64,000 nt of DNA from Minisyncoccota bacterium (GTDB lineage Bacteria > Patescibacteriota > Minisyncoccia > JBAYJV01): NCBI GenBank assembly GCA_041664925.1, contig JBAYJV010000002.1, positions 200,302 to 264,301 on the forward strand. The letters are read 5' to 3'. Below are positions 9,223-60,371 of the stretch, piece after piece. Each line of letters starts with the position of its first letter. Position 1 is the stretch's first letter. Under the pieces are notes generated by a model. The model was not told the DNA's origin. It made no database searches and worked only from the letters and a program-made list of their open reading frames with translations. Made by a program: the position numbers and the translations under genes.

Positions 9223-9339
9223 TAAAATGAAAAACCTGTAGATATCTAACATCCCTCGTCGCTGACATAGATAAAGCGCTGATTTTGCCCAAAAGATTGA
9301 CCGTAGATGTCCGACATCTACAACTGAAATTTTAATTAT

Positions 9340-9630
9340 ATGTCTATCGAAAAAGAACCAAGACAAGAAAAAACTTTTAAAGAAATTGAGCAAGAAATGC
9401 ATGAGCAAGGTTATCTTTACGCAGGAATTGAATCACTCACAATCACCCGATTAGATGAAAAAGATAGTCGATTTAAAGCTTTTCCATCTCAGACAAGAGA
9501 ACAGATCATAGAAAAACATTCTAGTGATGGCAGACTTGAAGTTGAACTAATTGATATTCCTAATCGAATTCCAGGACCACAAGACCAAGAAGCTGTCTGG
9601 GTCTTTGTCAAAGAAAAAGAAAAAAATTAA
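9340..9630 (+). CDS. Hypothetical protein
   Basis: 96-aa ORF preceded by GTCCGAC-core palindrome at 9303-9321. Confidence 0.35.
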   Translation: MSIEKEPRQEKTFKEIEQEMHEQGYLYAGIESLTITRLDEKDSRFKAFPSQTREQIIEKHSSDGRLEVELIDIPNRIPGPQDQEAVWVFVKEKEKN

Positions 9631-17334: not shown

Positions 17335-17552
17335 AGATTAAGCGCTGGTTTGTAAAAAAAGTTATTGAGAATAAGCTTGTGTCTACGCTGTGTCTTATTC
17401 TCGCCATTATTCTGCTTTCTGTTGATATCTATTATACTTTGTTACTTTTTAGGCTGACATGGTTTATACTTTTAATGGCGTTCATCTCTGGTTTCCTTTT
17501 GTGGTTCGATGCAAAATGTGAATCGCATCGCGCAAAGCTAAAATTAGATTAA
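17331..17552 (+). CDS. Small two-TM protein, paralog 2
   Basis: 73 aa, two TM helices, C-terminus CESHRAKLKLD. The 3' 45 nt are identical to the next gene. Confidence 0.55.
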   Translation: MKIKRWFVKKVIENKLVSTLCLILAIILLSVDIYYTLLLFRLTWFILLMAFISGFLLWFDAKCESHRAKLKLD

Positions 17553-17563
17553 AAGGAGAAAAT

Positions 17564-17791
17564 ATGAATAAGAAAATCTGTCGACAGTTTGTGAAAAGAA
17601 TTGTTGAAAGCGAATTTATGTTTATTACATGTATAGGAATCTCCTTTAGCTTGCTGGCTGTTGATGTATTCTACGCCTTATTGGTCCGTAAAATAACACT
17701 CCTTGCGGCGATTATAATGTTAATTGGTTGTCTTCTTATAGTTTTTGGCGGAACGTGTGAATCGCATCGCGCAAAGCTAAAATTAGATTAA
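17564..17791 (+). CDS. Small two-TM protein, paralog 3
   Basis: 75 aa, SD AAGGAG, identical C-terminus CESHRAKLKLD. Confidence 0.55.
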   Translation: MNKKICRQFVKRIVESEFMFITCIGISFSLLAVDVFYALLVRKITLLAAIIMLIGCLLIVFGGTCESHRAKLKLD

Positions 17792-17802
17792 AAGGAGGAA
17801 AA

Positions 17803-18027
17803 ATGGATGAGGAAGTAATGGGTGTTATCAGTTCAGCAATCGCTGGATTTGGAGAACAAGCCAACATTGCCTCAAATGTAGCACGCGACAAGATAGCAGT
17901 AAAGATTATCGAGGAACTAGAAGATCATGGTTTCTTAATTGTTCCCGCTGCTTCATCTGGTTCTTTCCTGCGCAAAAGAGAAAAACCACCCGATTCTTTC
18001 GTTCGAGACCCTTCGGATATAGGATAG
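17803..18027 (+). CDS. Hypothetical small soluble protein
   Basis: SD AAGGAGG; 74 aa; terminator at 18033-18063. Confidence 0.45.
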   Translation: MDEEVMGVISSAIAGFGEQANIASNVARDKIAVKIIEELEDHGFLIVPAASSGSFLRKREKPPDSFVRDPSDIG

Positions 18028-18063: not shown

Positions 18064-18106
18064 TAATTTCATCTCTGAGTAAAACGAAGAGAAATGAAAT
18101 TAAGAA

Positions 18107-18152
18107 TCCGCCGAAGCCCTGTCTGCGGCAGGCAGGTTACGCGTAGGCGGAT
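18107..18152. repeat. REP-like palindromic element (CCTGYCTGCGGCAGGCAGG core), copy a
   Basis: ATCCGCCGAAGCCCTGTCTGCGGCAGGCAGGTTACGCGTAGGCGGAT, about 90% identical to the copy at 21218-21264 including the upstream GAAATGAAATTAAGA. Confidence 0.55.
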
Positions 18153-18176
18153 AATTTTCTACCATCACTTTGTACT

Positions 18177-21178: not shown

Positions 21179-21217
21179 ATTTCGTCGCTGAATATAGTGA
21201 AGCGAAACGAAATTAAA

Positions 21218-21264
21218 ACCCGCTGAAGCCCTGCCTGCGGCAGGCAGGTTACGCGTAGGCGGGT
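21218..21264. repeat. REP-like palindromic element, copy b
   Basis: ACCCGCTGAAGCCCTGCCTGCGGCAGGCAGGTTACGCGTAGGCGGGT. Confidence 0.55.
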
Positions 21265-21485
21265 ATTTTTGTTTTTTTTAAACCGTAAAGATTATTCTAA
21301 GTTTTTCCTACAAAACCTTACGAAGTCGGACTTCGTAATCATTGACAAAAATGCAGAACATAGTAGGATTATAGAGTTCTTTGATAAAATAAAAAGTAGT
21401 CCCGCACCAGAGCACAGCACGGTGCGGGATTTAAGGGTTTGCAAGACTCGTAAACTCGTCAACAACCCCTAAAGGAGGACATAAA

Positions 21486-26842: not shown

Positions 26843-26900
26843 AATCCTTCGACTTCACTCAGGACAAATTCCTTCGACAAGAGCCCGCCTACGCTCTTCG
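26843..26900. repeat. Degenerate MITE family 2 core fragment
   Basis: ATCCTTCGACTTCACTCAGGACAAATTCCTTCGACAAG matches the family-2 core. Confidence 0.35.
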
Positions 26901-29588: not shown

Positions 29589-29607
29589 CAAATCGGGTCT
29601 TTTTTTA

Positions 29608-29672
29608 TTGATTGCGTTTTCGAATCCTTCGACAAGCTCAGGATAAATTCCATAAGAAAATACGCAATCAAT
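29608..29672. repeat. MITE family 2-related element with variant termini
   Basis: TTGATTGCGTTTT ... AAAATACGCAATCAA inverted ends around core ATCCTTCGACAAGCTCAGGATAAATTCCATAAG. Confidence 0.4.
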
Positions 29673-29802
29673 AACCCGTCCGGAGCCCTGCCGCTAATTC
29701 ATAATTTCTTTAGGCCTTTATAATTAAAATTACTTCAACGAAATGGGTAGCAAAGAATGGCGCAGGAGGGTAATTAATTATATATTTGAATAAATTCTGA
29801 AC

Positions 29803-37535: not shown

Positions 37536-37586
37536 GCAATATTCAATTATCAACTATCAATTTTCGACCAATGGTAATATTTACTG

Positions 37587-37685
37587 AGGTCCGACTTCAA
37601 TAAATTCGAATGTCATTTTGAGTAGCTTGATTGATTCAATAAACTCACAACAAGCAAGCTCACTATAAATTCTGCGAAGAATCCT
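37587..37685. repeat. Partial MITE family 2 copy (left half)
   Basis: GGTCCGACTTCAATAAATTCGAATGTCATTTTGAG...ATAAACTCAC...CTCACTATAAATTCTGCGAAGAATCCT abuts the ATG of 37686. Confidence 0.45.
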
Positions 37686-38213
37686 ATGAGAAAAATAAGT
37701 ATAAAAAATATAATTCTTACCGTAGTAGTTTGTTTGCTGTTTTTTGTTGTAATTATAATCATGGCAAGTCGCCCGGGGTCAAGAAGTCGCGCTCGTGATA
37801 GTCGAAGGGTTTCTGATGTTCGTCAGATTGAATTGGCGCTTGAACTCTATTATGCCGCCCATCTCCAATATCCAGAAGTATCGACCTCAGGCCTTGCGAC
37901 CCTTGCTACCGAAGGATTTCTTAATATGAGCGGTTTTCCAACAGATCCGACAACTAGAAATCCTTATTGCTATGCCGTTGGGAAAGACCTAGCTCTTGAT
38001 CAGGGACAATATTATCACGTTGGTGCTAGACTTGAAAACAAAGACAGCGATATGCTGACTCAAGATGCAGATAATAATACTCAAAACTCAGCCAATATAA
38101 TTTGGAATTGGAATCAAAGTCCAGATTGTGGGACAAATCCGGCAAATTCAAATTTTAACGGAACAGACTCAAAAAAATCACCAATTTATGATCGTGGAGT
38201 GTTTCCAAAATAA
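37686..38213 (+). CDS. Type IV pilin/pseudopilin-like protein
   Basis: N-terminal hydrophobic helix followed by ARDSRRVSDVRQIELALELYY, the pilin alpha1 signature. Confidence 0.4.
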   Translation: MRKISIKNIILTVVVCLLFFVVIIIMASRPGSRSRARDSRRVSDVRQIELALELYYAAHLQYPEVSTSGLATLATEGFLNMSGFPTDPTTRNPYCYAVGKDLALDQGQYYHVGARLENKDSDMLTQDADNNTQNSANIIWNWNQSPDCGTNPANSNFNGTDSKKSPIYDRGVFPK

Positions 38214-39147: not shown

Positions 39148-39675
39148 ATGAAAAAGGTTTTACTTATTGTTTCAAAAGAAGATTTTAGGGACGAAGAATA
39201 TTTCCAAACAAAGGAAGTTCTGGAAGACGAAGGTCTTTTTGTAGAAACCGCTAGCAACGCACCTAATACAGCTTTTGGAGTTAGCGGGGGAGAAGCTAGG
39301 ATAGATATTGATTTAAGTGAAGTAGAAGCAAAAAATTTTGACGCTGTTGTTTTTATCGGAGGACCTGGCGCGTTAAAACACCTCGACAATGAAACATCTT
39401 ATAAAATTGCCACCGATGTTATTGATTTGGGGAATATCTTAGCAGCTATTTGTATTGCTCCTGTTATTTTGGCAAAAGCAGGGGTTCTCAAGGAAAAGCG
39501 CGCAACGGTTTGGTCGTCAGAAATGGATAAATCCGCCGTCAAAATCATTGAAAAATGCGGCGCTATTTTTGTTGACGAAGAAATTGTCGAAGATGGAAAT
39601 GTTATTACCGCAAACGGTCCAGAGGCTTCTCAAGAATTTGGATCAGTGATTGTAGAAAAATTAGTTCAAATATGA
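39148..39675 (+). CDS. DJ-1/PfpI family protein
   Basis: Class I glutamine-amidotransferase-like fold with nucleophile elbow AAICIAP. Confidence 0.75.
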   Translation: MKKVLLIVSKEDFRDEEYFQTKEVLEDEGLFVETASNAPNTAFGVSGGEARIDIDLSEVEAKNFDAVVFIGGPGALKHLDNETSYKIATDVIDLGNILAAICIAPVILAKAGVLKEKRATVWSSEMDKSAVKIIEKCGAIFVDEEIVEDGNVITANGPEASQEFGSVIVEKLVQI

Positions 39676-40874
39676 AAATAAAAGATATAAGAGTTAGTAT
39701 TATAAAAAATTCTCGCAATGAAGATGCGCTTGAAGTTGAGTTATTAAATGATTCAGGATTATCGGTTATCGCCTCTGTTCCTCAAGGAGCAAGTACTGGA
39801 GAAAGAGAAGCGATATCTTTGTCAGCAGAAAATGCCATTGAAAAAATCAATGGTATTGTTGTTCCCGAGATCAAGGAAAAATCATTTGAGTCACAAGACG
39901 AGTTTGATGATCTTTTGTGTGAATTAGATGGCACAAATAACAAATCACGACTGGGAGCAAATGCTACCCTAGTTTTGTCTTTGGCATTTGCAAGATTGTT
40001 GGCAAAATTTAATAATCAGGAACTTTATGAATATATCGCAGAAATAACTCACTCAAAACCAAGTCTGCCAGCTTTTTATGCAAATATAATTGAAGGCGGA
40101 AAACATGCAAAAAATAATCTTGATTGGCAGGAATATTTAATTGTTGTCAAAGATTCGTCTGCGGAAAATCAATTAAAAATAGCAAAAGATGTTTTTGAAA
40201 ATATTGGAAATAAAGTAAAAACGCTATCCGACAGTATATCTTTTAGCGATGAAGGCGCTTATGATTTAAATTTTGAAAATAACACGGCTCCACTTGAATT
40301 AATTAATTCATCGATTAAAGAACTTGACCTCGAAGGTAAGGTAATGCTAGCCTTAGATGTTGCAGCCGATAGTTTCTATAAAAACAATGAATATACAATT
40401 GACGGAAGTCCGACTTCCGTCAATTCATTGACAAATATATATAATGATGTTGTAAATAAATATCCAGTTGTTTCGATTGAAGATCCATATGAAGAGAATG
40501 ACTTTGAACATTATGCGACATTAAATACTGTTTTAAATGATAAAAACATATTCATAGTTGGAGACGATCTGACTACAACAAATACGGTCTATATAGAAAA
40601 AGCTGTTTTAATGAACTCAATTAGCGGGATCATTATTAAACCAAACCAGATTGGCACATTAACAGAAACATTAGAAGCAATAAAAATTGCCAAGGAAAAT
40701 AATTTAAAAATCATTGTGTCTCACAGATCAGGAGAAACAGAAGATAGTTTCATTGCGGATCTTGCTTATGGTATCGGCGCTTACGGGCTCAAGGCAGGAG
40801 CGCCATCGCCAAAGGAAAGACTGGCAAAATATGATCGTATTATAGAAATAGATAAAATTCAGTATAATTTATAA
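39672..40874 (+). CDS. eno: Enolase (divergent)
   Basis: Signature IVSHRSGETEDSFIADLA and N-terminal SASTGEREA. Confidence 0.8.
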   Translation: MKIKDIRVSIIKNSRNEDALEVELLNDSGLSVIASVPQGASTGEREAISLSAENAIEKINGIVVPEIKEKSFESQDEFDDLLCELDGTNNKSRLGANATLVLSLAFARLLAKFNNQELYEYIAEITHSKPSLPAFYANIIEGGKHAKNNLDWQEYLIVVKDSSAENQLKIAKDVFENIGNKVKTLSDSISFSDEGAYDLNFENNTAPLELINSSIKELDLEGKVMLALDVAADSFYKNNEYTIDGSPTSVNSLTNIYNDVVNKYPVVSIEDPYEENDFEHYATLNTVLNDKNIFIVGDDLTTTNTVYIEKAVLMNSISGIIIKPNQIGTLTETLEAIKIAKENNLKIIVSHRSGETEDSFIADLAYGIGAYGLKAGAPSPKERLAKYDRIIEIDKIQYNL

Positions 40875-52734: not shown

Positions 52735-53544
52735 ATGATTAAATTTGCAGCAATTTGCCCACACCCCCCAATAATCATTCCAACTATTGGCAAGTCTCAA
52801 ACCTCAAAAGCTCAAGCCACGGTTGAGGCAATGAGAAAATTGACAATCAATTTAAAGCGTATCAGGAAAACTGATAAAGTTCTTGTAATTTCCCCCCATC
52901 TGCCAATAACTTGGGATGCGTTTACTCTTTATTATGAAGACCCTTATGAAGAAACATTAAAGGGGAATTTTGGTGATTTTGGCGATCCGGATATTTCTTT
53001 TGAATTTCAAGGAGATAAAAAAACCGTCGAAGATTTGAAAATTCTTGGTGGCCCGATTTTTCCCATTATTGGTACAACGATTCGTTATCTTGATCATGGA
53101 ACTCTTGTGCCCCTTTATTATCTTTGGAGTAAAGGAGAGCATAAAACGCCACTTATTCCAATGTCATTTTGTTCGCTCCCGCTCAAAGATCATTATCGTT
53201 TTGGTCAATTTCTAGGCGAATATTTGAAACAAGATAAAAATACTTGGACTATTGTTGCTTCTGCTGATCTTTCACATAGATTGGCAAGTTTTGCTCCTGA
53301 AGGATATAGTCCTAGGGCTCAAGAATTTGATAAACTGCTCGTTGAATATATTGAAAAAAAAGATATTAAAAAGCTTTTAAATATGGATCCTGAATTAATT
53401 TCTGAGGCAGCGGAGTGCGGATTGCGTTCGATTGTTATTCTTTTGGGAATCGTCTCAACTTTCAATTGGAAAGCGAAAATTCTTTCCTACGAAGCGCCGT
53501 TTGGAGTAGGATATCTTGTTTCCGAACTAAAGCTCGGAAATTAA
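52735..53544 (+). CDS. MEMO1-family protein (AmmeMemoRadiSam system protein B)
   Basis: ICPHPP N-terminus; DLSHR metal-binding motif typical of the Memo/extradiol-dioxygenase-like fold. Confidence 0.75.
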   Translation: MIKFAAICPHPPIIIPTIGKSQTSKAQATVEAMRKLTINLKRIRKTDKVLVISPHLPITWDAFTLYYEDPYEETLKGNFGDFGDPDISFEFQGDKKTVEDLKILGGPIFPIIGTTIRYLDHGTLVPLYYLWSKGEHKTPLIPMSFCSLPLKDHYRFGQFLGEYLKQDKNTWTIVASADLSHRLASFAPEGYSPRAQEFDKLLVEYIEKKDIKKLLNMDPELISEAAECGLRSIVILLGIVSTFNWKAKILSYEAPFGVGYLVSELKLGN

Positions 53545-53600
53545 TTTTTCCGCCCTAGGCGGACCAGCCTTGGGCTGGCAATTATCAACATAATTAATGT

Positions 53601-53730
53601 TATTGAAGTCGGACTTCAATAATTTTTTATTGTCATTCTGAGTCCTTCGATTTTTTCAGGATAAACTCCGTGAAGAATCTCAGAAAATACACGAGATCCT
53701 TCCCTCGCCTACGGCGGGTCAGGATGACAG
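53601..53730. mobile_element. MITE-like element, family 2 copy 1
   Basis: Palindrome TTGAAGTCGGACTTCAA, then TIR TTATTGTCATTCTGAG ... GGTCAGGATGACAG. Conserved core AGGATAAACTCCGTGAAGAATCTCAGAAAATACACGAGATCCTTC. Confidence 0.55.
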
Positions 53731-53745
53731 ATTGTACCAAAACCA

Positions 53746-53945
53746 TTGACTTTTAATAATAACTATGATATGATGACTAAAGTTGAATTAGTTCTTTAAA
53801 ATATTTTTGTTGGCAGCACACTGTGGCCTGTAGGCTGGACTTCAAAGTCCTCAGGCCCAGTCTGCTGTCAACAAAGAGAAGGACAAAAAACCTCAACGCC
53901 TTCCGCCTCAACAAGTCGAGGTCAACGTGACAGCAGGAGGACAAT
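53746..53945 (+). promoter_or_regulatory. Promoter (TTGACT-N17-TATGAT) plus conserved structured 5' leader, paralog 1
   Basis: Leader stem TTGTTGGCAGCAC...GTCTGCTGTCAACAA. Conserved AGAAGGACAAAAAACCTCAAC and GTGACAGCAGGAGGA abutting the SD. Confidence 0.5.
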
Positions 53946-54656
53946 ATGTCCAAGACGAAGCAGGTAGTACGGTTCTCGGTGAAAAGAATCAATGCAGAAA
54001 AAAACATATTTTGGAAAGGTATTATTAAGTTTATACATTCAGGCCGTGGGAATCGTTGTGAATTGATTGTAATCAATGATCCTCCGCTGCCACATCTTGA
54101 TGTTACTTACATGGAAGAACGCAATGTGGTCCTACAGAGAATCATTCGGAATTTCCCGGCCGAACTTGTAAAAGACACTCTGGAATACCCATATTCGCCA
54201 ACATCCGTTATGTATGGCGACTTGAGGGTTAAAATCGATTTCACTGGATTGATCGAAGTTATTGGTTCTCTTCTAGATAGCATGATGGGGCCAGAATACG
54301 AGATAGCTTTCCTCAATTATGGAGAAGAATATGCCGACGGCAAAACTATCGACGAAACCCTTAGGCAAAAACTTCGTCGCCGAAGTTATCGGCTTTGCCA
54401 TTTGACTGCAGTTGGAGACCATAATGCATGGAAACATGAAATTTCCAGTATGGGACTAACGCCGGAAGAGGCGGCAGAAAGGATAGGAGTAAACATCGAG
54501 GGACTTGTTAGTAATAATGTCTATTTGGTTTATGTGCCAATTGGAAACTTAGACAAAGTTCTTATCGGACTCGATGAATGGGCAGCACAGAGAGGAATTT
54601 CACGTTTTAGGATTCAAGACGAACTTGTTCTTGTTGAAACAACTAAGAAAGATTAG
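53946..54656 (+). CDS. Hypothetical protein (leader-bearing paralog 1)
   Basis: SD AGGAGG; 165-nt structured leader; terminator 54668-54697; N-terminal VVRFSVKRI. Confidence 0.5.
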   Translation: MSKTKQVVRFSVKRINAEKNIFWKGIIKFIHSGRGNRCELIVINDPPLPHLDVTYMEERNVVLQRIIRNFPAELVKDTLEYPYSPTSVMYGDLRVKIDFTGLIEVIGSLLDSMMGPEYEIAFLNYGEEYADGKTIDETLRQKLRRRSYRLCHLTAVGDHNAWKHEISSMGLTPEEAAERIGVNIEGLVSNNVYLVYVPIGNLDKVLIGLDEWAAQRGISRFRIQDELVLVETTKKD

Positions 54657-54734
54657 TTCTAAGCTGAGTCCGCAGATGTAGTTCTGCGGACTTTTTTTAT
54701 TTAGTGTAGATGTCGGACACCTACACCAAATAAT

Positions 54735-54915
54735 TTGACTTTTAATAAATTTAGTATTAGGATAATGAAAGAATCGTTCTTTAAAAATTTTGTTGACAGC
54801 GCCGTGAAATTAATTTTTTGACTTTATGGCGCTGTCAACAAAGCAAGGGTAAAAAAACCTTCATCACCCTTCACCCCAGCAAGCCGGGGTTGTCGTGACA
54901 GCGAAGGAGAAGTAA
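54735..54915 (+). promoter_or_regulatory. Promoter (TTGACT-N16/17-TAGGAT) plus homologous 5' leader, paralog 2
   Basis: Leader stem TTGTTGACAGCGCC...GGCGCTGTCAACAA. Conserved AAGGGTAAAAAAACCTTCATC and GTGACAGCGAAGGAGA. Confidence 0.5.
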
Positions 54916-55707
54916 ATGGCAAAAAAGGTCGGCAGGGATCCAGGAAGAACGGTAACTCAGAAAGTAAGGTTTCGTGTGTCAATTCTTACTAGGCCGACAC
55001 AATCTGATCCAATTCCCATTGAATGGGATGGTCAAGTTATCATTAAAAAATCTTGTGGAACACATTGTATATCAATTACCCTAGAACCAAATCCTAGCGA
55101 AATTGTTATGAAACTGGTCGCTGCAAGATTAAACCTGCTTGGCCATCTTCTTACTTCTAATTTTGAAGTCAAAAAACACGAACAAGAGTCATATTACATA
55201 ACAGGCACGTTTTATTTATCTACAAGTTTTAGGTTTTTTATTGATGCTTGTTATAGAACTTTCTGTGAAGAAATTCCTCAAACAAATAAATGGCCACATC
55301 ATTGGCTTGACTGGAACCCTCGCAATCTAAGCGTCGAGGAATTGCTTAGAAATGGATTGCCCCTCGCCAAAGATATCGAAGAAACATATCGCAAAGTAAC
55401 TTATGTTCTCTGCTTAAAAAGCTACATACAGGACAGCGCTGCTCCTCATCGCACAATTTCAAGACGGTGGAATCTTAATGCTCAGAACGATCAAGAATTG
55501 CAAGATGACCTTGGAAATGCTTTTGGAGTAAGAATAAAAAGTTATTGTAAAAGCGATGGAATAGCCTATTGTGGAGTCGAAATCCTTCCGGGAGATCCAA
55601 TGAGAATTATTCCTGAATTTTCCGGTTGGGCGTTAAGCGCAGGTTGGGATTGGGATAAGCTCCTTAAGGACAAAGAATTGATCCTTTGGAGAGTTGATCA
55701 AGAATAA
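54916..55707 (+). CDS. Hypothetical protein (leader-bearing paralog 2)
   Basis: SD AAGGAG; homologous 145-nt leader; N-terminal KVRFRVSIL; terminator 55721-55753. Confidence 0.5.
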   Translation: MAKKVGRDPGRTVTQKVRFRVSILTRPTQSDPIPIEWDGQVIIKKSCGTHCISITLEPNPSEIVMKLVAARLNLLGHLLTSNFEVKKHEQESYYITGTFYLSTSFRFFIDACYRTFCEEIPQTNKWPHHWLDWNPRNLSVEELLRNGLPLAKDIEETYRKVTYVLCLKSYIQDSAAPHRTISRRWNLNAQNDQELQDDLGNAFGVRIKSYCKSDGIAYCGVEILPGDPMRIIPEFSGWALSAGWDWDKLLKDKELILWRVDQE

Positions 55708-55766
55708 TCTTTAAACGTTACCCCGTACATAAGTTATGTGCGGGGATTTTTTTGTTTTAATCATAA

Positions 55767-55934
55767 ATTGACAGAAGTCCGACTTCTGTCAATTTTTATT
55801 GTCATTCTGACCCTGTACTGTATGGTACAGAGGAAGAATCTCAGAGAATACACAGGATCCTTCGTTGGTTCAATGGATTCGATAGGCTCACCACAGGCAA
55901 GTTCACCACAAGTCACACTCAGGATGACAATAAA
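55767..55934. mobile_element. MITE-like element, family 2 copy 2
   Basis: Palindrome TTGACAGAAGTCCGACTTCTGTCAA, TIR TTATTGTCATTCTGACC ... CTCAGGATGACAATAAA, core GAAGAATCTCAGAGAATACACAGGATCCTTC. Confidence 0.55.
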
Positions 55935-56124
55935 TATTTGTGTAGGTGTCCGACATCTACACAAAAATGGAAAAACCCCGCACCACATTAGGTGCGAGGT
56001 CCTCATGAAACTAATAACTCATTTTTTTAATAAAAAACTCGTTAAAGTTTCATGTGACTTGACAAACAGGTAAAATAGGAATAGAATGTTGCTAGATTAT
56101 TAATTTGACATTTTTGATACTTAT

Positions 56125-57912
56125 ATGAAGAAAATTATCACTTTTTTAAGTCTAATTGCGATTCTAGCAGGCGTCTTTTTGACAGTTGAAGCGATTAGGG
56201 GAACTATTACTACTCCTCAAAATCAAATCAACGAAGAAAGCGCTTATTCGGTTACAAGAAAAGATATCGCCCAAAAAATCACCCTAAGCGGTGAAGTCAA
56301 AGAAAGTGAAAGCCAGGCGAGCGATCAATCTTTTGATATTGCGGGAAAAATTGAAGATATCTTTGTTAAAGAAGGTGATGTTGTAAAAAAGAATGATGTT
56401 TTGGCAACTATTTCAGCCAACTCGACTCTTCTTGAAAAAGAAAGAGAATTGGCAAGAATAGCAGTTCAGCAAGCTCAAGCCAATCTTAATAAAGCCATTG
56501 CCACTCCCAGCACACAAGAAATTAAGTATTGGGATCAATCAGTTGTTGACGAAGCCAAAAATTATTTTAATCAAACTCGCGCCAATGGCGATGCAAAGAT
56601 TGCTCAAGCTCAAAATCAAGTTAATTCAATTCAAGATGAATTAAATCTTGTTAATAATACAATTGCAGGTGCTGGTCAAAATTATTCGAGCGATTCGACA
56701 TCGTTGAAATCATCAATTCAAGGAAGCTTGATTGCTAATTATTTCGTTTTAGATAAAGCCATGTGGGCTCATGATAGAATTCAGAAAATATATTTCCCAA
56801 ACAATGATCAAATTGGCCTTAGGGTAAGAGAAAAACAAACCGATGCTTTTGATAAATATTATGTAGCAAAATGGTATATGGACAATCAAATCTCAAAGAA
56901 TTTTCCAGCTCCAGATTGGGCAATCACTGACTGTTTAGAATACACAAAACAGGCTTTGGAAAAATTGTCTATCGCTTATCAAACAACCAACGAAGCTTTT
57001 AATGATGCTTTTTATGCCCCAAGATTGTTAGCAGAAGACAGAGACACTATTGATAATGCCCGAAGAGACATTACTAAAAGTTTAGCGTCAATCACAAATT
57101 CACAAGAACAATGGACTAATAGAAATGGTGTCTCCTTAGATAATTCTTCTAAAAGCGATCTTATTCAAAGAAAAACAGCTCTGGAAAATTCTCTTAGAGA
57201 TGCCACAAATAATTTAAATCAAGTTAAATCTCAGGCCCAAGAAGCGCTAAACAAAGCCGATGCGAATCTCAAGGATTCTTATATTAGAGCGTTAAAAACT
57301 AAGACTATCAATAATCCAAAAAATACAGCATCTCTTGAAACAATCTTAAAACAAGCTCAAGAAAAATATAATCAACTTTTATCAGAAAAGACTTCAACTA
57401 TTAAACTTTATGCTAATATTGACGGTATCGTGTCTGATGTTTTGACTACTAAAGGAACATGGATTCAGGCAAAATCTCCAATTATAAAAATAGGCCAAAA
57501 AGGCGGATTGACCATAGAATCCGATTTGCAAGATAAGGATGTCAATCTTTCCGATGAAGTTTCTATCAGTTCTGAAAAGTATGAAGGCATCACATGGAAG
57601 GGGATTGTGATAAATATTACTGATGGAAAAGCGACAATTAGTTTTTCTGATTGCATTAATGATGATGCCGTTTGTTCCAATAAATTGTCTTCTGGAGATG
57701 TTGTTAGTCTTGAAATAAAAATAAAGGAAAAGAAAAATGCCGTTGTGGTTCCAAAAAATTATATTATTGAAAAAGAAGGTAAATCCTTTGTTCAAACAAA
57801 ATTAGACAAAGAAATCGTTTTAAGAGAAATAAGAACAGGGATTGTTAATGGAGAATATATTGAAGCTCTTGAAGGTGTTAGTGAAGGAGATATAATTTAT
57901 CTTCAAAAATAA
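56125..57912 (+). CDS. HlyD-family membrane-fusion (periplasmic adaptor) protein, orphan
   Basis: N-terminal TM, long coiled-coil Q/N/A-rich middle, C-terminal beta-barrel/lipoyl-like VVPKNYII...GEYIEALEGVSEGDII. Confidence 0.6.
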   Translation: MKKIITFLSLIAILAGVFLTVEAIRGTITTPQNQINEESAYSVTRKDIAQKITLSGEVKESESQASDQSFDIAGKIEDIFVKEGDVVKKNDVLATISANSTLLEKERELARIAVQQAQANLNKAIATPSTQEIKYWDQSVVDEAKNYFNQTRANGDAKIAQAQNQVNSIQDELNLVNNTIAGAGQNYSSDSTSLKSSIQGSLIANYFVLDKAMWAHDRIQKIYFPNNDQIGLRVREKQTDAFDKYYVAKWYMDNQISKNFPAPDWAITDCLEYTKQALEKLSIAYQTTNEAFNDAFYAPRLLAEDRDTIDNARRDITKSLASITNSQEQWTNRNGVSLDNSSKSDLIQRKTALENSLRDATNNLNQVKSQAQEALNKADANLKDSYIRALKTKTINNPKNTASLETILKQAQEKYNQLLSEKTSTIKLYANIDGIVSDVLTTKGTWIQAKSPIIKIGQKGGLTIESDLQDKDVNLSDEVSISSEKYEGITWKGIVINITDGKATISFSDCINDDAVCSNKLSSGDVVSLEIKIKEKKNAVVVPKNYIIEKEGKSFVQTKLDKEIVLREIRTGIVNGEYIEALEGVSEGDIIYLQK

Positions 57913-57989
57913 ATAAAATTATTTATTAATAACTTGAAAAAATCCTGTCTCCTGTAGGCAGGATTTTTGTTTGTGTCTTGATTTAGTGT

Positions 57990-58451
57990 TTGAGAAAATT
58001 ATATAATATAGTTATGAATCCAGAAATTACAATTAAAGATGTTTCCAAGGATCGAGTGATTTGCGTTCAAGGTGAAGTTTTTTCGGAATCAAAAGCGATG
58101 AATCTGGTTAATCAGATTTTGGTTTGGCTGATCGAAAAAGGCTTGGCGATTTCTGATCTGCCAGTTGTTGTTGTCAATAAGGATAGGAGTTTTGAAGTCG
58201 GTGTTCCCATAAAAGAAGCTCGTATTCAAGAAACAAAAGAATATAAAATCAAGCAATTAGAAGCTCATCGCATGGGTTCTTTTTTTCACAGAGAGACAGA
58301 AAAGCCGTTATCGTTGTCTGAAGATTTTCTTAAAAAACAATTGCAATATGAAGGTTTCCAAATTCTCGAACCACATCGCTATGTCTTGCATCCCAACCCT
58401 GAAAAACCAGAAATACCTTTAGTGGAAATACAGATACCGATACATAAGTAA
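57990..58451 (+). CDS. Hypothetical protein (possible GyrI-like effector-binding domain)
   Basis: Weak resemblance to the GyrI-like fold; probable true start MNPEITIKD at 58014. Confidence 0.35.
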   Translation: MRKLYNIVMNPEITIKDVSKDRVICVQGEVFSESKAMNLVNQILVWLIEKGLAISDLPVVVVNKDRSFEVGVPIKEARIQETKEYKIKQLEAHRMGSFFHRETEKPLSLSEDFLKKQLQYEGFQILEPHRYVLHPNPEKPEIPLVEIQIPIHK

Positions 58452-58541
58452 TGCAAATTAAAAATTTAAAGTGAAAAATGAAAAATGATTGAAGCTGCAA
58501 GAGCAGCTCTTTTTAATTGACAAAGATAGCTCTATGCTGTA

Positions 58542-59032
58542 AAATGTTAGAGCTTAGAAATGAATGGTCTTCTCCGGCTTTGCTGGTGAGGAAAGTCCGA
58601 ACACCGCCAATTTTGTCTTTGAGTGATAGCGAAAAGAAACAAAATTGAGCGTCTCGCCATAGTTCCGGTTCACCGGAACGTAGGCGGACACCCGCCTTTG
58701 TCTTACAGACTTCGGCGAGGTCTCGATTCTGTATCTTCGCTGCGCTTCAGACAGAATTGGAAATGGACAGTGGCTAACGGCCACCGCCCCGGCTTGCCGG
58801 GGTAGGGAAAGTACCACAGAAACAATACATCCGCCCTCGGGTGGATAGGTGAAAAGTGAGGTTTAATAAATCTCTCGACACATAAGTGATTATGCGTTGC
58901 GGCAAACCCTGTCCGGTGCAACCCCGGTATAACCGGGGGCTTGATTCATAGTAATGTGAATCAGAGGCTCTGTCGCAAGACAGGCTCTAGATAAATGACC
59001 AATAAACAGAATTCGGCTTATCATTTTTGAGC
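58542..59032 (+). ncRNA. rnpB: RNase P RNA (bacterial, with lineage-specific insertions)
   Basis: P4 strands GAGGAAAGTCCG (58587-58598) and ACAGAATTCGGCTTA (59006-59020). P1 pairing GCTTAGAAATGA / TCATTTTTGAGC. Promoter TTGACA-N17-TAAAAT at 58507-58535. Confidence 0.8.
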
Positions 59033-59077
59033 AAAATAACAAAAAGATCTCGCAAAACCTGCGGGATTTTTTTGCAT

Positions 59078-59219
59078 CGTCATTCTGGCGTCACGACAAA
59101 ATCAAAGAGAAAAGAGTTCTATGTTTGCATGTCATTCTGAATGGTTCGATAAACTCACTATAAATTCCATGAAGAATCTCGAGATCCTTCGGTCGCCTAA
59201 GGCGACCTCAGAATGACAT
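59078..59219. mobile_element. MITE-like element, family 2 copy 3 (with extra partial left end)
   Basis: Perfect TIR ATGTCATTCTGA ... TCAGAATGACAT (59129-59219), core ATAAACTCACTATAAATTCCATGAAGAATCTCGAGATCCTTCGG, and an additional CGTCATTCTGG at 59078. Confidence 0.55.
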
Positions 59220-59369
59220 AGAAAAGATCTATGCTGATATTAGACAAAATATTATTTGACAAAAAATAAATAATACTATAAGATACAATCAGTTCCTTAA
59301 AAAAGGAGCACTTAGCCCAGCGCCCGGCCGGCTAAAAATAGGTGGGGCAAGAATACTAAGGAGGTTGGC

Positions 59370-60371
59370 ATGACAGCCAACGAGAGAAAAGGGGAAAGAA
59401 AAAGGTGGCAAGAGGATCGAGAAAAGTATTGGCCTCTTGATAGGTATGAAAGTTTTACATCTTGGGATGATGTTTTAGAGAATTTTGACCCAAACAAAAT
59501 AGGCATGGAAGCAGCTATGGGCATTCTCCATGGAATGGCTCGCTTGCCTATATTGCCTGATCGATTTGGACCCAATATTGAAGCATCCTTTAGAAGACTA
59601 GCTTTCTATCTCCATTGTGCTGAATACGGAGGAGAAGGATTATCTGCAATCCATGGCGGATTCGTTCCAGAATACTATTTAAGATCCATGGCTTATGATC
59701 GTCTTGTCTCTTCACCAAGCATTATGCTTCACAATGATTTGTTGAGATACAGTACTAGTCCTAGTCCGCTTATAGGAGAAAATCTTGAGATTTACAAGGA
59801 TTTTGTTGAGCTTCTACACTTGACTCTTGATTTCTTTTCAAGACCAGGAAACCGACCTGTAAAACCGAAACACAAGAAAGATATTGCTTCTTTCTTTCGA
59901 GAAGTTCTTGGTTTGGATCTTGAACATAGCAATCTCCGACAAGAACTTAGAATATCTTCTGCTGAGCTCGATAAAAATGCCACAGAAATCAGAGAAAAAG
60001 CGATTAAGGCAACGGTTAATTGCCGTCTCTACGAGTTAATTGTAGAGAAAAAGCTTTTTGAAGCGCTAGATTCTTTGCTTCAATCGGCTTTCCGAGAAGA
60101 AGAGATGGGATTTTCTCAAAACGCTATAAGTTTCATAATGGCCATTCCTCCTGAGAAAAGAAAAGAATTTGCAAGTATGCTTTCTAAGATTAAAATCGAA
60201 GTTGATTCTGCCTCAAGTGCTTGGCTTGCACTCTGGGCAATGAAGAATGCACCAGAAGAGGAGACTCATCGTCATCACAGACAAATGACCATAGAAGATG
60301 GTTCTCCAAGTTTCCGTCCAGACATAGATACTTCTCGTGAAATTGAAAATACTGGAGGAAGCGATAGTTAA
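59370..60371 (+). CDS. Hypothetical protein
   Basis: SD AAGGAGG; promoter TTGACA at 59256; terminator 60381-60411. Confidence 0.5.
   Translation: MTANERKGERKRWQEDREKYWPLDRYESFTSWDDVLENFDPNKIGMEAAMGILHGMARLPILPDRFGPNIEASFRRLAFYLHCAEYGGEGLSAIHGGFVPEYYLRSMAYDRLVSSPSIMLHNDLLRYSTSPSPLIGENLEIYKDFVELLHLTLDFFSRPGNRPVKPKHKKDIASFFREVLGLDLEHSNLRQELRISSAELDKNATEIREKAIKATVNCRLYELIVEKKLFEALDSLLQSAFREEEMGFSQNAISFIMAIPPEKRKEFASMLSKIKIEVDSASSAWLALWAMKNAPEEETHRHHRQMTIEDGSPSFRPDIDTSREIENTGGSDS

What the first reader, a model, noticed from the sequence alone, without database searches (positions are those of the whole stretch)
53601..59219. MITE-like repeat family 2 (TIR TGTCATTCTGA) with a conserved GAAGTCSGACTTC palindrome at its left end; at least 4 full or partial copies
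Copies lie at 53601-53730, 55767-55934, 59078-59219 and partial 37587-37685. Divergent relatives lie at 29608-29672 and 26843-26900. They share terminal inverted repeats (TTATTGTCATTCTGAG...CTCAGGATGACAA), a conserved internal core (GAAGAATCTCAGARAATACACRRGATCCTTC), and sit in intergenic regions directly flanking hypothetical genes and rnpB. The 37587 copy ends exactly at a start codon and may provide that gene's 5'UTR.
Basis: seen in the sequence. Interest (0 to 1): 0.55.

Follow-up and report, generated by a model that had tools for sequence, protein, structure and literature searches.

The report
Paired hairpin repeats, not true MITEs
The "MITE-like" repeats are real, but each is an inverted pair of a small tagged DNA hairpin of the REP type, seen here in about 17 bacterial phyla, and they lack the insertion scars of a transposon, so this is a new variant of a known kind of repeat.

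Summary
There are three complete copies (53631-53729, 55800-55929, 59130-59218), one copy at 37611-37685, a remnant at 59078-59097, and two loose relatives. The source is a Candidatus Paceibacterota (CPR) genome.

The MITE reading holds only in part. The "terminal inverted repeats" are the outer arms of two inverted hairpin units of the form TGTC-ATTCT-GA-[variable stem-loop]-GA-AGAAT-CTC. In 120 loci from about 17 phyla, the right-hand unit pairs with itself far more often than with the left arm (63 of 84; 16.8 expected). 111 complete elements show no target-site duplication, and no transposase recurs nearby. The 37611 copy is a complete single unit, conserved in a sister genome.

The GAAGTCSGACTTC palindrome is a separate repeat family. 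It also occurs alone, and it persists where the element is absent. Sister genomes show presence/absence differences: site B is empty in three lineages.

The closest known kinds are the CGTC/TGTC-tagged REPs (Neisseria dRS3/NTS, Rickettsia RPE) and the Ssn-related motifs cut by small GIY-YIG single-strand DNA nucleases. In Pedobacter, the same unit brackets such a gene. The published SRM search pattern does not match, and no nuclease gene lies in this window.

Verdict: a new variant of a known kind, of moderate interest.

The parts
53631..53729 (+). Hairpin-unit dimer 1, with the tags on the outside. Left unit 53631-53681 (TGTC ATTCT GA ... GA AGAAT CTC), spacer 53682-53692 (AGAAAATACAC), right unit 53693-53729 (the complement of TGTC ATCCT GA ... 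GA AGGAT CTC).
   Evidence: RNA fold -33.9 kcal/mol, z -3.5. In one search the right unit folds as a local DNA hairpin (z -2.0).
55800..55929 (+). Hairpin-unit dimer 2. Left unit 55800-55842, spacer 55843-55853 (AGAGAATACAC), right unit 55854-55929. The right unit carries a GGCTCACCACAGGCAAGTTCACCAC insert.
   Evidence: left unit z -2.6. The whole block 55762-55975 is absent from the orthologous site in L124/L125, L128 and L132.
59130..59218 (+). Hairpin-unit dimer 3, with perfect outer arms TGTCATTCTGA/TCAGAATGACA and no spacer. It lies downstream of the RNase P RNA terminator.
   Evidence: (z -6.5).
59078..59097 (+). Remnant of an older unit (CGTCATTCTGGCGTCACGAC) that abuts the RNase P terminator T-run. 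Orthologous remnants or units occur at the same junction in L124/L125, L127 and L132.
37611..37685 (+). Single complete unit (monomer): TGTC ATTTT GA ... GA AGAAT CCT. It lies directly before the ATG of a type IV pilin-like gene (37686-38213).
   Evidence: The orthologous, better preserved copy is in L137/L138.
53600..53622 (.). Perfect palindrome TTATTGAAGTCGGACTTCAATAA followed by a T-run. It belongs to a separate repeat family. It is conserved at this site in L124/L125 (without the dimer) and L128; L132 carries the TTACG-stem variant there.
55765..55795 (.). Perfect palindrome AAATTGACAGAAGTCCGACTTCTGTCAATTT followed by a T-run, on the left of dimer 2.
   Evidence: (terminator-like).
55940..55962 (.). 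Palindrome GTGTAGGTGTCCGACATCTACAC on the right of dimer 2.
37581..37603 (.). Degenerate GTCCGAC palindrome upstream of the monomer. The copy in L137 is perfect.
54704..54726 (.). Solitary palindrome GTGTAGATGTCGGACACCTACAC, 9 nt upstream of a TTGACT -35 box.
21318..21338 (.). Solitary palindrome TTACGAAGTCGGACTTCGTAA, 3 nt upstream of a TTGACA box.
40397..40425 (.). Solitary palindrome AATTGACGGAAGTCCGACTTCCGTCAATT, inside the mechanical ORF 39672-40874.
9303..9321 (.). Solitary palindrome GTAGATGTCCGACATCTAC upstream of ORF 9340-9630.
29605..29674 (+). Relative with different outer arms (TTATTGATTGCGT/ACGCAATCAATAA) and a shared interior module. It starts directly after a terminator T-run.
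   Evidence: D3; z -5.0.
26843..26900 (+). Weak relative that shares only the module TCCTTCGAC..CTCAGGACAAATTCC.

Best explanation
**What the elements are.** They are REP-type repeats, not classical MITEs. The basic unit is a tagged hairpin:
- a 5' TGTC (or CGTC) tag;
- a 5-bp closing stem that starts A-T, T-A (ATTCT/AGAAT, with variants such as ATCCT/AGGAT);
- a symmetric GA/GA internal loop;
- a variable apical stem-loop or insert;
- a short unpaired tail (CTC or CCT).

Two units in inverted orientation with the tags outward, an 'HH dimer', give the apparent TIR element. One unit alone gives the 37611 copy. Together with a second, independent palindrome family (core GTCSGAC), they form BIME-like mosaics. 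These mosaics sit just behind terminator T-runs and ahead of the next promoter.

**What is shown.**
- The unit architecture.
- Covariation within a unit.
- The absence of TSDs and of a linked transposase.
- Presence/absence differences and changes of element interior between sister genomes.
- A distribution across about 17 bacterial phyla.
- The same unit bracketing a small single-domain GIY-YIG gene in Pedobacter.

**What is inferred.** The units probably act as single-stranded DNA hairpins recognised by a small GIY-YIG single-strand nuclease of the Ssn type, as shown for Neisseria NTS/dRS3. That nuclease would nick beside the tag. The repeats would then spread or turn over by nicking, recombination or gene conversion rather than by cut-and-paste transposition. 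A secondary local effect on transcripts is possible, for instance the monomer hairpin abutting the pilin-like start codon. No such nuclease has been identified in this genome.
For: **Copies and arms.**

**Distribution.** The hits come from Chloroflexota, Bacillota, Nitrospirota, Ignavibacteriota, Bacteroidota, Verrucomicrobiota, Planctomycetota, Desulfobacterota, Acidobacteriota, Campylobacterota, Omnitrophota, Proteobacteria, Melainabacteria, Patescibacteria, Elusimicrobiota, Zixibacteria and Oligoflexales.

**Covariation within a unit.** 63 of 84 right halves are self-complementary, through 9 different triplet pairs. The permutation mean is 16.8, sd 3.2, maximum 27. Of the 51 right halves whose terminal triplet does not match the left arm, 41 are self-complementary.

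**Variable apical hairpins.** Sequences differ but hairpins are kept, with GA/GA or GNA/GNA loops. 36% of 119 unique segments have z below -2.

**No TSD.** No direct repeat of 2-9 bp beyond the control in 111 elements.

**No linked gene.** The largest neighbouring-gene clusters are ABC ATPases and two-component proteins.

**Sister genomes.** Site B is empty in L124/L125, L128 and L132. Site A is empty in L124/L125 and is filled with different interiors in L127 and L128. Site C carries remnants in all of them.

**Monomer.** It is conserved in L137/L138.

**Literature.**
- PMC3733652 describes CGTC REPs. The tag is often TGTC, the stem starts with A and T, there is an unpaired tail, most are HH dimers, and they 'seem lacking a dedicated transposase'. 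Neisseria dRS3 and Rickettsia RPE-4/-6 are members.
- PMC11893778 gives NTS as CGTCATTCCCGCGMAVGCGGGAATCYRG. It is cut as ssDNA by SsnA, a small GIY-YIG protein, and ssn genes are flanked by such repeats.

**Pedobacter frigidisoli (L089).** A GIY-YIG gene of about 100 aa (PF01541, E 4e-17) has CTCAGAATGACA about 37 nt before its ATG and TGTCATTCTGAG 13 nt after its stop. The gene-plus-units module is tandemly duplicated.
Against: - No GIY-YIG, HUH or other candidate enzyme was found in the 64-kb window or in about 150 kb of sister loci, apart from a 72-aa GIY-YIG ORF inside rnpB in L130. The Pfam overview of window ORFs showed only 25 of 84 families, so a transposase in the window is not strictly excluded.
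- The small GIY-YIG genes examined in CPR genomes are single-copy and are not flanked by TGTC units.
- The published SRM search pattern matches none of these units.
- I could not verify that the Pedobacter protein belongs to the SsnA subfamily (cd10448).
- In this window, the halves that carry the 30-nt AT-rich insert do not fold as stable local hairpins (z about 0). The stable predicted fold uses the long-range arm pairing.
- The left-hand units in the 120 loci were fixed by the search pattern, so only the right halves bear on covariation.
- Only six or so copies lie in the window. The genome-wide copy number is unknown.
Confidence: 0.62

Rival explanations
1. Classical MITE. On this reading the element is a deletion derivative of an insertion sequence with 11-15 bp TIRs (TTATTGTCATTCTGA). 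A DDE transposase encoded elsewhere in the genome moves it in trans by cut-and-paste.
For: - It has inverted termini that begin TG...CA and a size of 89-130 bp.
- It is multi-copy and intergenic.
- It shows a presence/absence difference at site B.
Against: - No TSD at any length or offset in 111 elements.
- No transposase recurs in 120 loci.
- No match in 72,556 plasmids or 50,697 phage records.
- Half-units occur alone (37611; L011, L092, L101, L103, L106).
- Covariation supports the half-unit rather than arm-to-arm pairing.
- Near-identical termini in about 17 phyla would be unusual for a transposase-specific TIR.
Confidence: 0.1
2. Functional cis-acting structure kept by selection. On this reading the hairpins act in the transcript or the DNA as terminators, insulators, mRNA 3'-end protectors or translation modulators. 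Their repetition would reflect function more than mobility.
For: - Copies sit at orthologous positions in relatives (site A, site C and the PPDK-pilin spacer).
- The elements start 0-4 nt after terminator T-runs.
- The palindromes score as terminator-like hairpins.
- The monomer's purine-rich 3' arm abuts a start codon.
- REPs are widely thought to act in RNA (PMC3733652).
Against: - Interiors differ completely between orthologous sites, and some sites are empty.
- Dimers 1-3 lie downstream of likely terminators, so they may be little transcribed.
- There is no Rfam match.
- Both orientations are present in every dimer.

This reading is not exclusive of the best explanation.
Confidence: 0.18
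3. REPIN-type element. On this reading the REP doublets are mobilised by a RAYT or IS200-like HUH tyrosine transposase acting on single-stranded hairpins.
For: - The doublet architecture is the same: two inverted hairpins with a spacer.
- There is no TSD.
- The elements are extragenic.
- The analogy is drawn in PMC3733652 and PMC11893778.
Against: - The tag is TGTC/CGTC, not GTAG.
- CGTC REPs are reported never to flank RAYT genes.
- No recurrent neighbouring gene in 120 loci.
- No HUH gene was noticed in the window, although that list was truncated.
Confidence: 0.08

Closest known systems
CGTC/TGTC-tagged REPs (Di Nocera, De Gregorio and Rocco 2013, PMC3733652), including Neisseria dRS3 and Rickettsia RPE-4/-6
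   Same: - A 5' CGTC tag that is often TGTC.
- A stem that starts with complementary A and T.
- A short unpaired tail.
- Mostly dimers with the tags outside, and conserved spacers in such dimers.
- Extragenic location, mostly downstream of genes.
- No dedicated transposase.

A canonical unit (TGTCATTCCTGCGAAGGCAGGAATCC) occurs in sister locus L127.
   Different: - The stem is 5 bp plus a tandem GA/GA loop plus a variable extension, not 8-9 contiguous pairs with a 4-5 nt loop.
- The tail is CTC or CCT rather than CCA.
- In this window, apical inserts of about 30 nt replace the loop.
- The host range seen here (about 17 phyla, including CPR) is far wider than the 5 phyla reported.
NTS / Ssn-related motifs with the SsnA GIY-YIG single-strand DNA nuclease (Chenal et al. 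2025, PMC11893778)
   Same: - The HGTC-AT...AT-C framework of a tagged hairpin repeat.
- The same TGTCATTCTGA unit brackets a small single-domain GIY-YIG gene in Pedobacter frigidisoli, like NTS-ssnA-NTS.
   Different: - The published SRM search pattern does not match these units.
- No ssn-like gene was found in this window or the sister loci.
- Membership of the Pedobacter protein in the SsnA subfamily is unverified.
- Cleavage has not been tested.
REPINs with RAYT transposases, and E. coli BIMEs
   Same: - Inverted doublets of imperfect palindromes.
- Mosaics of several palindrome types.
- No TSD.
- Turnover between strains.
   Different: - There is no GTAG tag.
- No RAYT gene is associated.
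- The sequence is conserved across phyla rather than being species-specific.
Bacterial MITEs (Correia/NEMIS, RUP, Coxiella QMITE1/2; PMC5896051)
   Same: - Short, non-coding and palindromic.
- Intergenic.
- Can provide or abut expression signals.
   Different: - MITEs have a TSD (2-11 bp in the QMITEs) and transposase-derived TIRs.
- Here no TSD is found, and the arms belong to hairpin units.

Membership tests
MITE | Terminal inverted repeats | tested here: met
   11-20 nt arms in the three complete copies. They are better explained as the arms of two hairpin units.
MITE | Target-site duplication flanking the element | tested here: not met
   No direct repeats of 2-9 bp at offsets 0-5 beyond the shuffled control in 111 elements. 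None is visible at window sites A-C.
MITE | Cognate autonomous IS or transposase with the same ends | tested here: inconclusive
   None is linked in 120 loci. There is no plasmid or phage match. The whole source genome could not be scanned, and the Pfam list for the window was truncated.
MITE | Presence/absence polymorphism between related genomes | tested here: met
   Site B is filled only in the window. Site A is empty in L124/L125.
CGTC/TGTC-tagged REP | Unpaired CGTC (or TGTC/CCTC) tag at one end | tested here: met
   TGTC in all four window units and CGTC in the 59078 remnant. T precedes GTCAT in 82% of 111 elements.
CGTC/TGTC-tagged REP | Stem that begins with complementary A and T in positions 1-2 | tested here: met
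   ATTCT/AGAAT, ATCCT/AGGAT and seven other covarying forms.
CGTC/TGTC-tagged REP | Stem of 8-9 bp with a loop of 4-5 nt | tested here: not met
   The stem is 5 bp plus GA/GA plus a variable extension. The simplest form (L127, L128: ATTCT-GA-GC-GAA-GC-GA-AGAAT) has 7 Watson-Crick pairs and 2 G.A pairs with a 3-nt loop.
CGTC/TGTC-tagged REP | Short unpaired tail (consensus CCA) | tested here: inconclusive
   The tail is CTC in the dimers and CCT or CCC in the monomer. It is a tail, but a different sequence.
CGTC/TGTC-tagged REP | Mostly dimers with the tags outside (HH) | tested here: met
   Three of the four window copies, and 111 of 141 instances in other phyla, have an inverted right end with the tag outside.
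CGTC/TGTC-tagged REP | High copy number across the genome | not testable with these tools
   Only the 64-kb window and flanks of up to 10 kb are available.
Ssn-related motif (SRM/NTS) | Matches HGTCWYN(0-2)YYVSBRHN(0-5)WNVSBRGN(0-2)RNCYNB | tested here: not met
   0 matches in the window and 0 in L124, L127, L128, L132, L137, L089 and L011. The NTS control matches.
Ssn-related motif (SRM/NTS) | A small single-domain GIY-YIG (ssn) gene flanked by the repeats | tested here: inconclusive
   Met for the same unit in Pedobacter frigidisoli L089. Not found in the window or in sister loci. The CPR GIY-YIG genes examined are not flanked by these units.
Ssn-related motif (SRM/NTS) | Strand-specific cleavage of the hairpin as ssDNA | not testable with these tools
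   This needs an enzyme assay.
REPIN/RAYT | GTAG tag and an associated RAYT gene | tested here: not met
   The tag is TGTC, and no recurrent neighbouring gene exists. The GTCSGAC palindromes of type GTGTAG... contain GTAG only as part of the paired stem.
Any Rfam RNA family | Covariance-model match | tested here: not met
   No hit at the gathering threshold in the window. Only RNase P appears at E of 1 or less in 53000-60000.

The most novel reading that the evidence does not exclude
The TGTC-ATTCT-GA...GA-AGAAT-CTC hairpin may be the most widely distributed member of the CGTC/NTS repeat superfamily, present in at least about 17 phyla. It would be a single-strand DNA substrate for a branch of small GIY-YIG (Ssn-like) nucleases that the published SRM definition misses. 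In a DNA-scavenging CPR episymbiont with a tiny gene set, these repeats would then mark where incoming or replicating single-stranded DNA is nicked. That would link them to natural transformation and recombination, and it would narrow the search for the long-missing enzyme that propagates CGTC REPs.
Probability: 0.25. Interest if true: 0.6.

Novelty: new variant of a known kind. Interest (0 to 1): 0.4.

Why it matters
CGTC-type REPs have lacked an identified mobilising enzyme since they were described in 2013. The 2025 Ssn work gave them a partner nuclease, but it defined the motif narrowly.

This locus shows a variant that the published pattern misses. The variant is interrupted by GA/GA loops and tolerates inserts. 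Near-identical termini recur across most bacterial phyla, including a small-genome CPR lineage, and the variant brackets a GIY-YIG gene in Pedobacter.

If the link holds, it broadens the Ssn-repeat system. It also offers a small genome in which to look for the enzyme.

There is a practical point as well. These repeats produce spurious small ORFs and break assemblies: two independent contigs end at window position 53549, just before the first palindrome.

Tried and rejected
- **Literature searches on sequence strings** (GTCATTCTGAG, GAAGAATCTC and peptide read-throughs) returned only vector, bla and primer hits. 'Miniature inverted-repeat' plus 'Candidate Phyla Radiation' gave nothing relevant.
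- **BLAST of a canonical element** against plasmids and phages gave one chance hit and none, respectively.
- **Rfam** gave no family for the elements. I considered hammerhead or other ribozyme readings because of the CUGA...GAAG motif and rejected them for lack of any model hit.
- **TSD search** at every length and offset was negative.
- **Gene-neighbourhood clustering** of 2,560 ORFs from 120 loci found only ABC ATPases, two-component proteins and HD-GYP proteins recurring.
- **Composite search** for palindrome plus T-run plus element in the metagenome collection gave 4 hits. Two are the same site A in the L128 lineage (one of them the L128 contig itself) and two are chance. The composite is therefore lineage-restricted, and the single metagenome scan is now spent.
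- **A loose regular expression for units** in the window was no better than shuffles (25 hits against about 18), so it was not used.
- **The SRM search pattern** gave no hits.
- **Looking for TGTC units beside CPR GIY-YIG genes** was negative.
- **The Pfam overview of window ORFs** through an alignment id lists only 25 of 84 families, so it cannot exclude a transposase.
- **L121-L123** are 100% identical to the window and give no polymorphism.

Full report
**1. The observation**

The window has 35.7% G+C. It comes from a Candidatus Paceibacterota (CPR) genome: the HlyD-like protein at 56125-57912 is 100% identical to a protein that NCBI assigns to that group.

The exact 11-mer TGTCATTCTGA occurs at 53631, 55800 and 59130. 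Each has an inverted partner 78-119 nt downstream. Allowing one mismatch gives 9 matches against 1.61 expected.

All three complete copies contain GAAGAATCTC ... GAKATCCTTC, and two share the spacer AGARAATACAC. A fourth copy at 37611-37685 ends GAAGAATCCT directly before the ATG at 37686. A remnant, CGTCATTCTGG, lies at 59078.

The stretch at 29605-29674 shares an interior module but has different arms. The stretch at 26843-26900 shares only the module.

**2. The palindrome is a separate element**

RNGTCSGACNY occurs 9 times against 0.38 expected. It precedes three of the four copies by 8-13 nt. It is missing from the 59130 copy. It also stands alone at 9312, 21328, 40411 and 54715, and a further copy flanks dimer 2 on the right at 55951.

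Across the window and sister loci there are four recurring stem types, all perfect palindromes of 19-33 bp around a C or G centre: TTATTG-, TTACG-, TTGAC[AG]G- and GTGTAG-. In sister genomes L124/L125 the palindrome is present at site A without the element.

Those next to elements are followed by TTTTT(T)A and score as terminator-like hairpins. Three solitary ones lie 3-9 nt upstream of a TTGACA or TTGACT box.

**3. Sister genomes**

Homologues of the HlyD-like protein (87, 86, 84 and 54% identity) led to syntenic contigs L124/L125, L127, L132 and L128-L131.

- **Site A** (LigB to the first paralogue). The element follows palindrome-TTTTTTA in the window, in L127 (a different palindrome and a simple interior, TGTCATTCTGAGCGTAGCGAAGAATCTC...) and in L128 (another interior). 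It is truncated in L132 and absent in L124/L125.
- **Site B** (second paralogue to the HlyD-like gene). The window carries a block of about 215 bp, consisting of palindrome, dimer and palindrome. The block is missing from L124/L125, L132 and the more distant L128. L127 has a different palindrome plus canonical CGTC-type hairpins there.
- **Site C** (after the RNase P terminator). Every lineage has a unit or remnant at the same junction, with different content downstream.
- **The 37611 copy.** It is present, and better preserved, at the orthologous PPDK-to-pilin spacer in L137/L138.

The family therefore turns over, by gain, loss and exchange of interiors, while some positions persist.

**4. 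Distribution**

My estimate of chance matches for 20 specified bases is about 34. The hits span about 17 phyla, including isolates of Chryseobacterium, Pedobacter, Hymenobacter, Helicobacter and Campylobacter. Most hits show the full architecture, with an inverted right end. Nothing comparable is present in the plasmid or phage collections.

**5. Anatomy**

- *Flanks.* In 111 complete elements the flanks carry T before GTCAT (82%) and A after ATGAC (81%). There is no direct repeat of 2-9 bp at any offset beyond a shuffled control.
- *Variable segment.* The stretch between GTCATTCTGA and GAAGAATCTC varies in sequence but is often a hairpin. 36% of 119 unique segments have z below -2. Nested short stems are separated by GA/GA or GNA/GNA loops, and CGNAG pentamer runs include GCGAAGC.
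- *The decisive test.* The right half reads A-NNN-TTC ... TCA-N'N'N'-TGAC. Its two triplets are complementary to each other in 63 of 84 cases, through nine different triplet pairs. The permutation mean is 16.8, sd 3.2, maximum 27 in 5000. The terminal triplet matches the left arm exactly in only 33 of 84. Of the 51 that do not match, 41 are self-complementary.

The selected structure is therefore the half-unit, TGTC-AYNNT-GA-[variable]-GA-ANNRT-CTC. The 'TIR' follows from two inverted units. Single units occur alone in other phyla and here at 37611.

Caveats:
- The left halves were fixed by the search pattern.
- In this window, the halves that carry a 30-nt AT-rich insert do not fold stably on their own (z about 0). 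The compact halves do (z -2 to -3).
- Whole dimers fold as four-way junctions using the arm pairing (z -3.5, -1.3 and -6.5).

**6. No linked enzyme**

Clustering 2,560 ORFs from the 120 loci gave no recurrent neighbour beyond ABC ATPases, two-component proteins and HD-GYP proteins. The window encodes housekeeping functions such as sigma-70, DnaG, enolase, TGT and PPDK. That Pfam overview was truncated.

**7. Comparison with known families**

Di Nocera et al. 2013 (PMC3733652) describe CGTC-tagged REPs:
- the tag is often TGTC;
- the stem starts with A and T;
- there is an unpaired tail;
- most are dimers with the tags outside;
- they were found in 5 phyla;
- they are equated with Neisseria dRS3 and Rickettsia RPE-4/-6;
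- they 'seem lacking a dedicated transposase'.

The present unit shares the tag, the A-T start, a tail and the dimer form. It differs in having a 5-bp stem, a GA/GA loop and a variable extension in place of an 8-9 bp stem with a 4-5 nt loop.

Chenal et al. 2025 (PMC11893778) show that NTS (CGTCATTCCCGCGMAVGCGGGAATCYRG) is cut as ssDNA by SsnA, a small single-domain GIY-YIG nuclease. They also show that ssn genes are typically flanked by such motifs, and that the system lowers transformation in Neisseria. Their degenerate SRM search pattern matches none of the present units.

A profile search for small GIY-YIG proteins over all fetched loci found three:
- **L089 (Pedobacter frigidisoli).** The gene of about 100 aa (PF01541, E 4e-17) has CTCAGAATGACA about 37 nt before its ATG and TGTCATTCTGAG 13 nt after its stop. 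The gene-plus-units module is duplicated in tandem, and the second copy carries a stop codon.
- **L011.** The gene is flanked by ATCCTGAA...TTCAGGAT-type hairpins.
- **L130.** A 72-aa ORF sits inside the rnpB 5' region.

No GIY-YIG gene lies in the window. Two common CPR GIY-YIG genes were examined, one beside dprA and one between ruvB and ruvC. Both are single-copy and not flanked by TGTC units. The link to an Ssn-type nuclease is therefore shown for the repeat type but not for this genome.

**8. Mechanism**

*Shown:*
- a tagged hairpin unit under structural selection;
- dimers and monomers;
- no TSD;
- no cis-encoded enzyme;
- turnover between sister genomes;
- placement 0-4 nt after terminator T-runs in five cases.

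*Inferred:* the units act as ssDNA hairpins for a trans-acting nuclease, most likely of the GIY-YIG Ssn type. They would spread or be reshuffled by nicking and recombination rather than by cut-and-paste.

A local RNA effect is possible for the monomer. Its purine-rich 3' arm abuts the start codon of a type IV pilin-like gene. It was not tested.

**9. Verdict**

The repeats are real and non-random, but they are not classical MITEs. They are a new, extended variant of the CGTC/TGTC REP (NTS/SRM-like) family, arranged with a second palindrome family in BIME-like mosaics. I rate interest as moderate. The wide phyletic range, the mismatch with the published SRM definition and the Pedobacter GIY-YIG association are the points worth following up.

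Noticed in passing
window 53791-53948 and 54776-54918; also L124 3232-3399 and 4247-4390, L127 5342-5500 and 6352-6495, L128 6329-6507 and 7477-7646, L132 2822-2968: There is a structured 5' leader before two paralogous hypothetical genes. Its layout is GTTCTTTAAAA..TTTGTTGRYAGC[hairpin]GCTGTCAACAAAG, then two further hairpins, then CGTGACAGC plus a Shine-Dalgarno sequence. RNAalifold on 9 sequences gives 38 pairs, 13 of them with compensatory double changes. The 5' UUCUUU pairs with the Shine-Dalgarno region. There is no Rfam hit. It may be a new cis-regulatory RNA.
   Followed up: partly
window about 58553-59027: RNase P RNA scores 91.9 bits, below the Rfam gathering score of 100, and is reported only from 58716. 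The GAGGAAAGTCCGAACAC element lies upstream at about 58590, behind a TTGACA-17-TAAAAT promoter at 58517-58545. An insertion of about 130 nt follows it. L124/L132 have 22 nt there, and L127 has a different insertion of about 150 nt.
   Followed up: partly
L130 4896-5114: A 72-aa GIY-YIG ORF (PF01541, E 4e-8) sits inside the 5' region of the RNase P RNA gene of the 54%-identity sister lineage. It lies between ...gtcgccccgcactttc and gaaagtgcggggaggaaagtccgaac, like a homing-type insertion.
   Followed up: partly
window 21318-21338, 40397-40425, 54704-54726, 9303-9321: Solitary GTCSGAC palindromes lie 3-9 nt upstream of strong -35 boxes. At 9303 the palindrome lies between a TTGACC box and the start codon. 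The 40397 copy is inside the mechanical ORF 39672-40874. An operator or insulator role was not tested.
   Followed up: partly
window 18098-18158 and 21210-21270; L124 5171-5390; L137 about 2835-2880: Another GC-rich repeat...CCGCYGAAGCCCTGYCTGCGGCAGGCAGGTTACGCGTAGGCGG..., recurs in the window and in sister intergenic regions. It was not analysed.
   Followed up: no
window 17480-17575 and 17719-17814: Two 96-nt stretches 239 nt apart share GTGAATCGCATCGCGCAAAGCTAAAATTAGATTAAAAGGAG upstream of an ATG (76% identity overall). This could be a duplicated leader or a small-gene pair (family D4).
   Followed up: no
window 19801, 22772, 34879, 49211; 9626, 30238, 30498; 18152, 19205, 22477, 25411: AT-rich short-period intergenic repeats of the types ACGAAAT/CCGAAAT, ATTCTAAATTC and TTTTAACTTTAAA recur in many spacers, including in sister loci (families D1, D2, D5-D7, D11).
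   Followed up: no
L040 3513-3977 (Pedobacter nototheniae); L075 2128-2925 (Helicobacter marmotae); L089 1800-3700: In some genomes the same units form tandem arrays (a 135-bp period in L040) or dense clusters. Many elements carry a doubled left end, GTCATTCTGA..N6-12..TGTCATTCTGA, or a dimer nested inside another (L087). This suggests insertion into, or slippage at, existing hairpins.
   Followed up: partly
L122 and L123 position 1 = window 53549: Two independent assemblies of the same population end their contigs at the same base, just before the site A palindrome and dimer. This is probably an assembly break caused by the repeats.
   Followed up: no
L142 1399-1790; L152 1450-1775: Small single-copy GIY-YIG genes of CPR bacteria sit beside dprA and serS, or between ruvB and yebC/ruvC. 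In L142 the ORF is bracketed by the inverted repeat CCCCCTCTTT / AAAGAGGGGG.
   Followed up: partly
L132 2587-2965 compared with window 53545-54915: L132 has a single paralogue where the window has two. The junction runs from a truncated TGTC unit (TTGTCATTCT) straight into the GTGTAATGTCGGACATCTACGC palindrome that precedes the second paralogue. This fits a deletion or recombination between repeat modules.
   Followed up: partly
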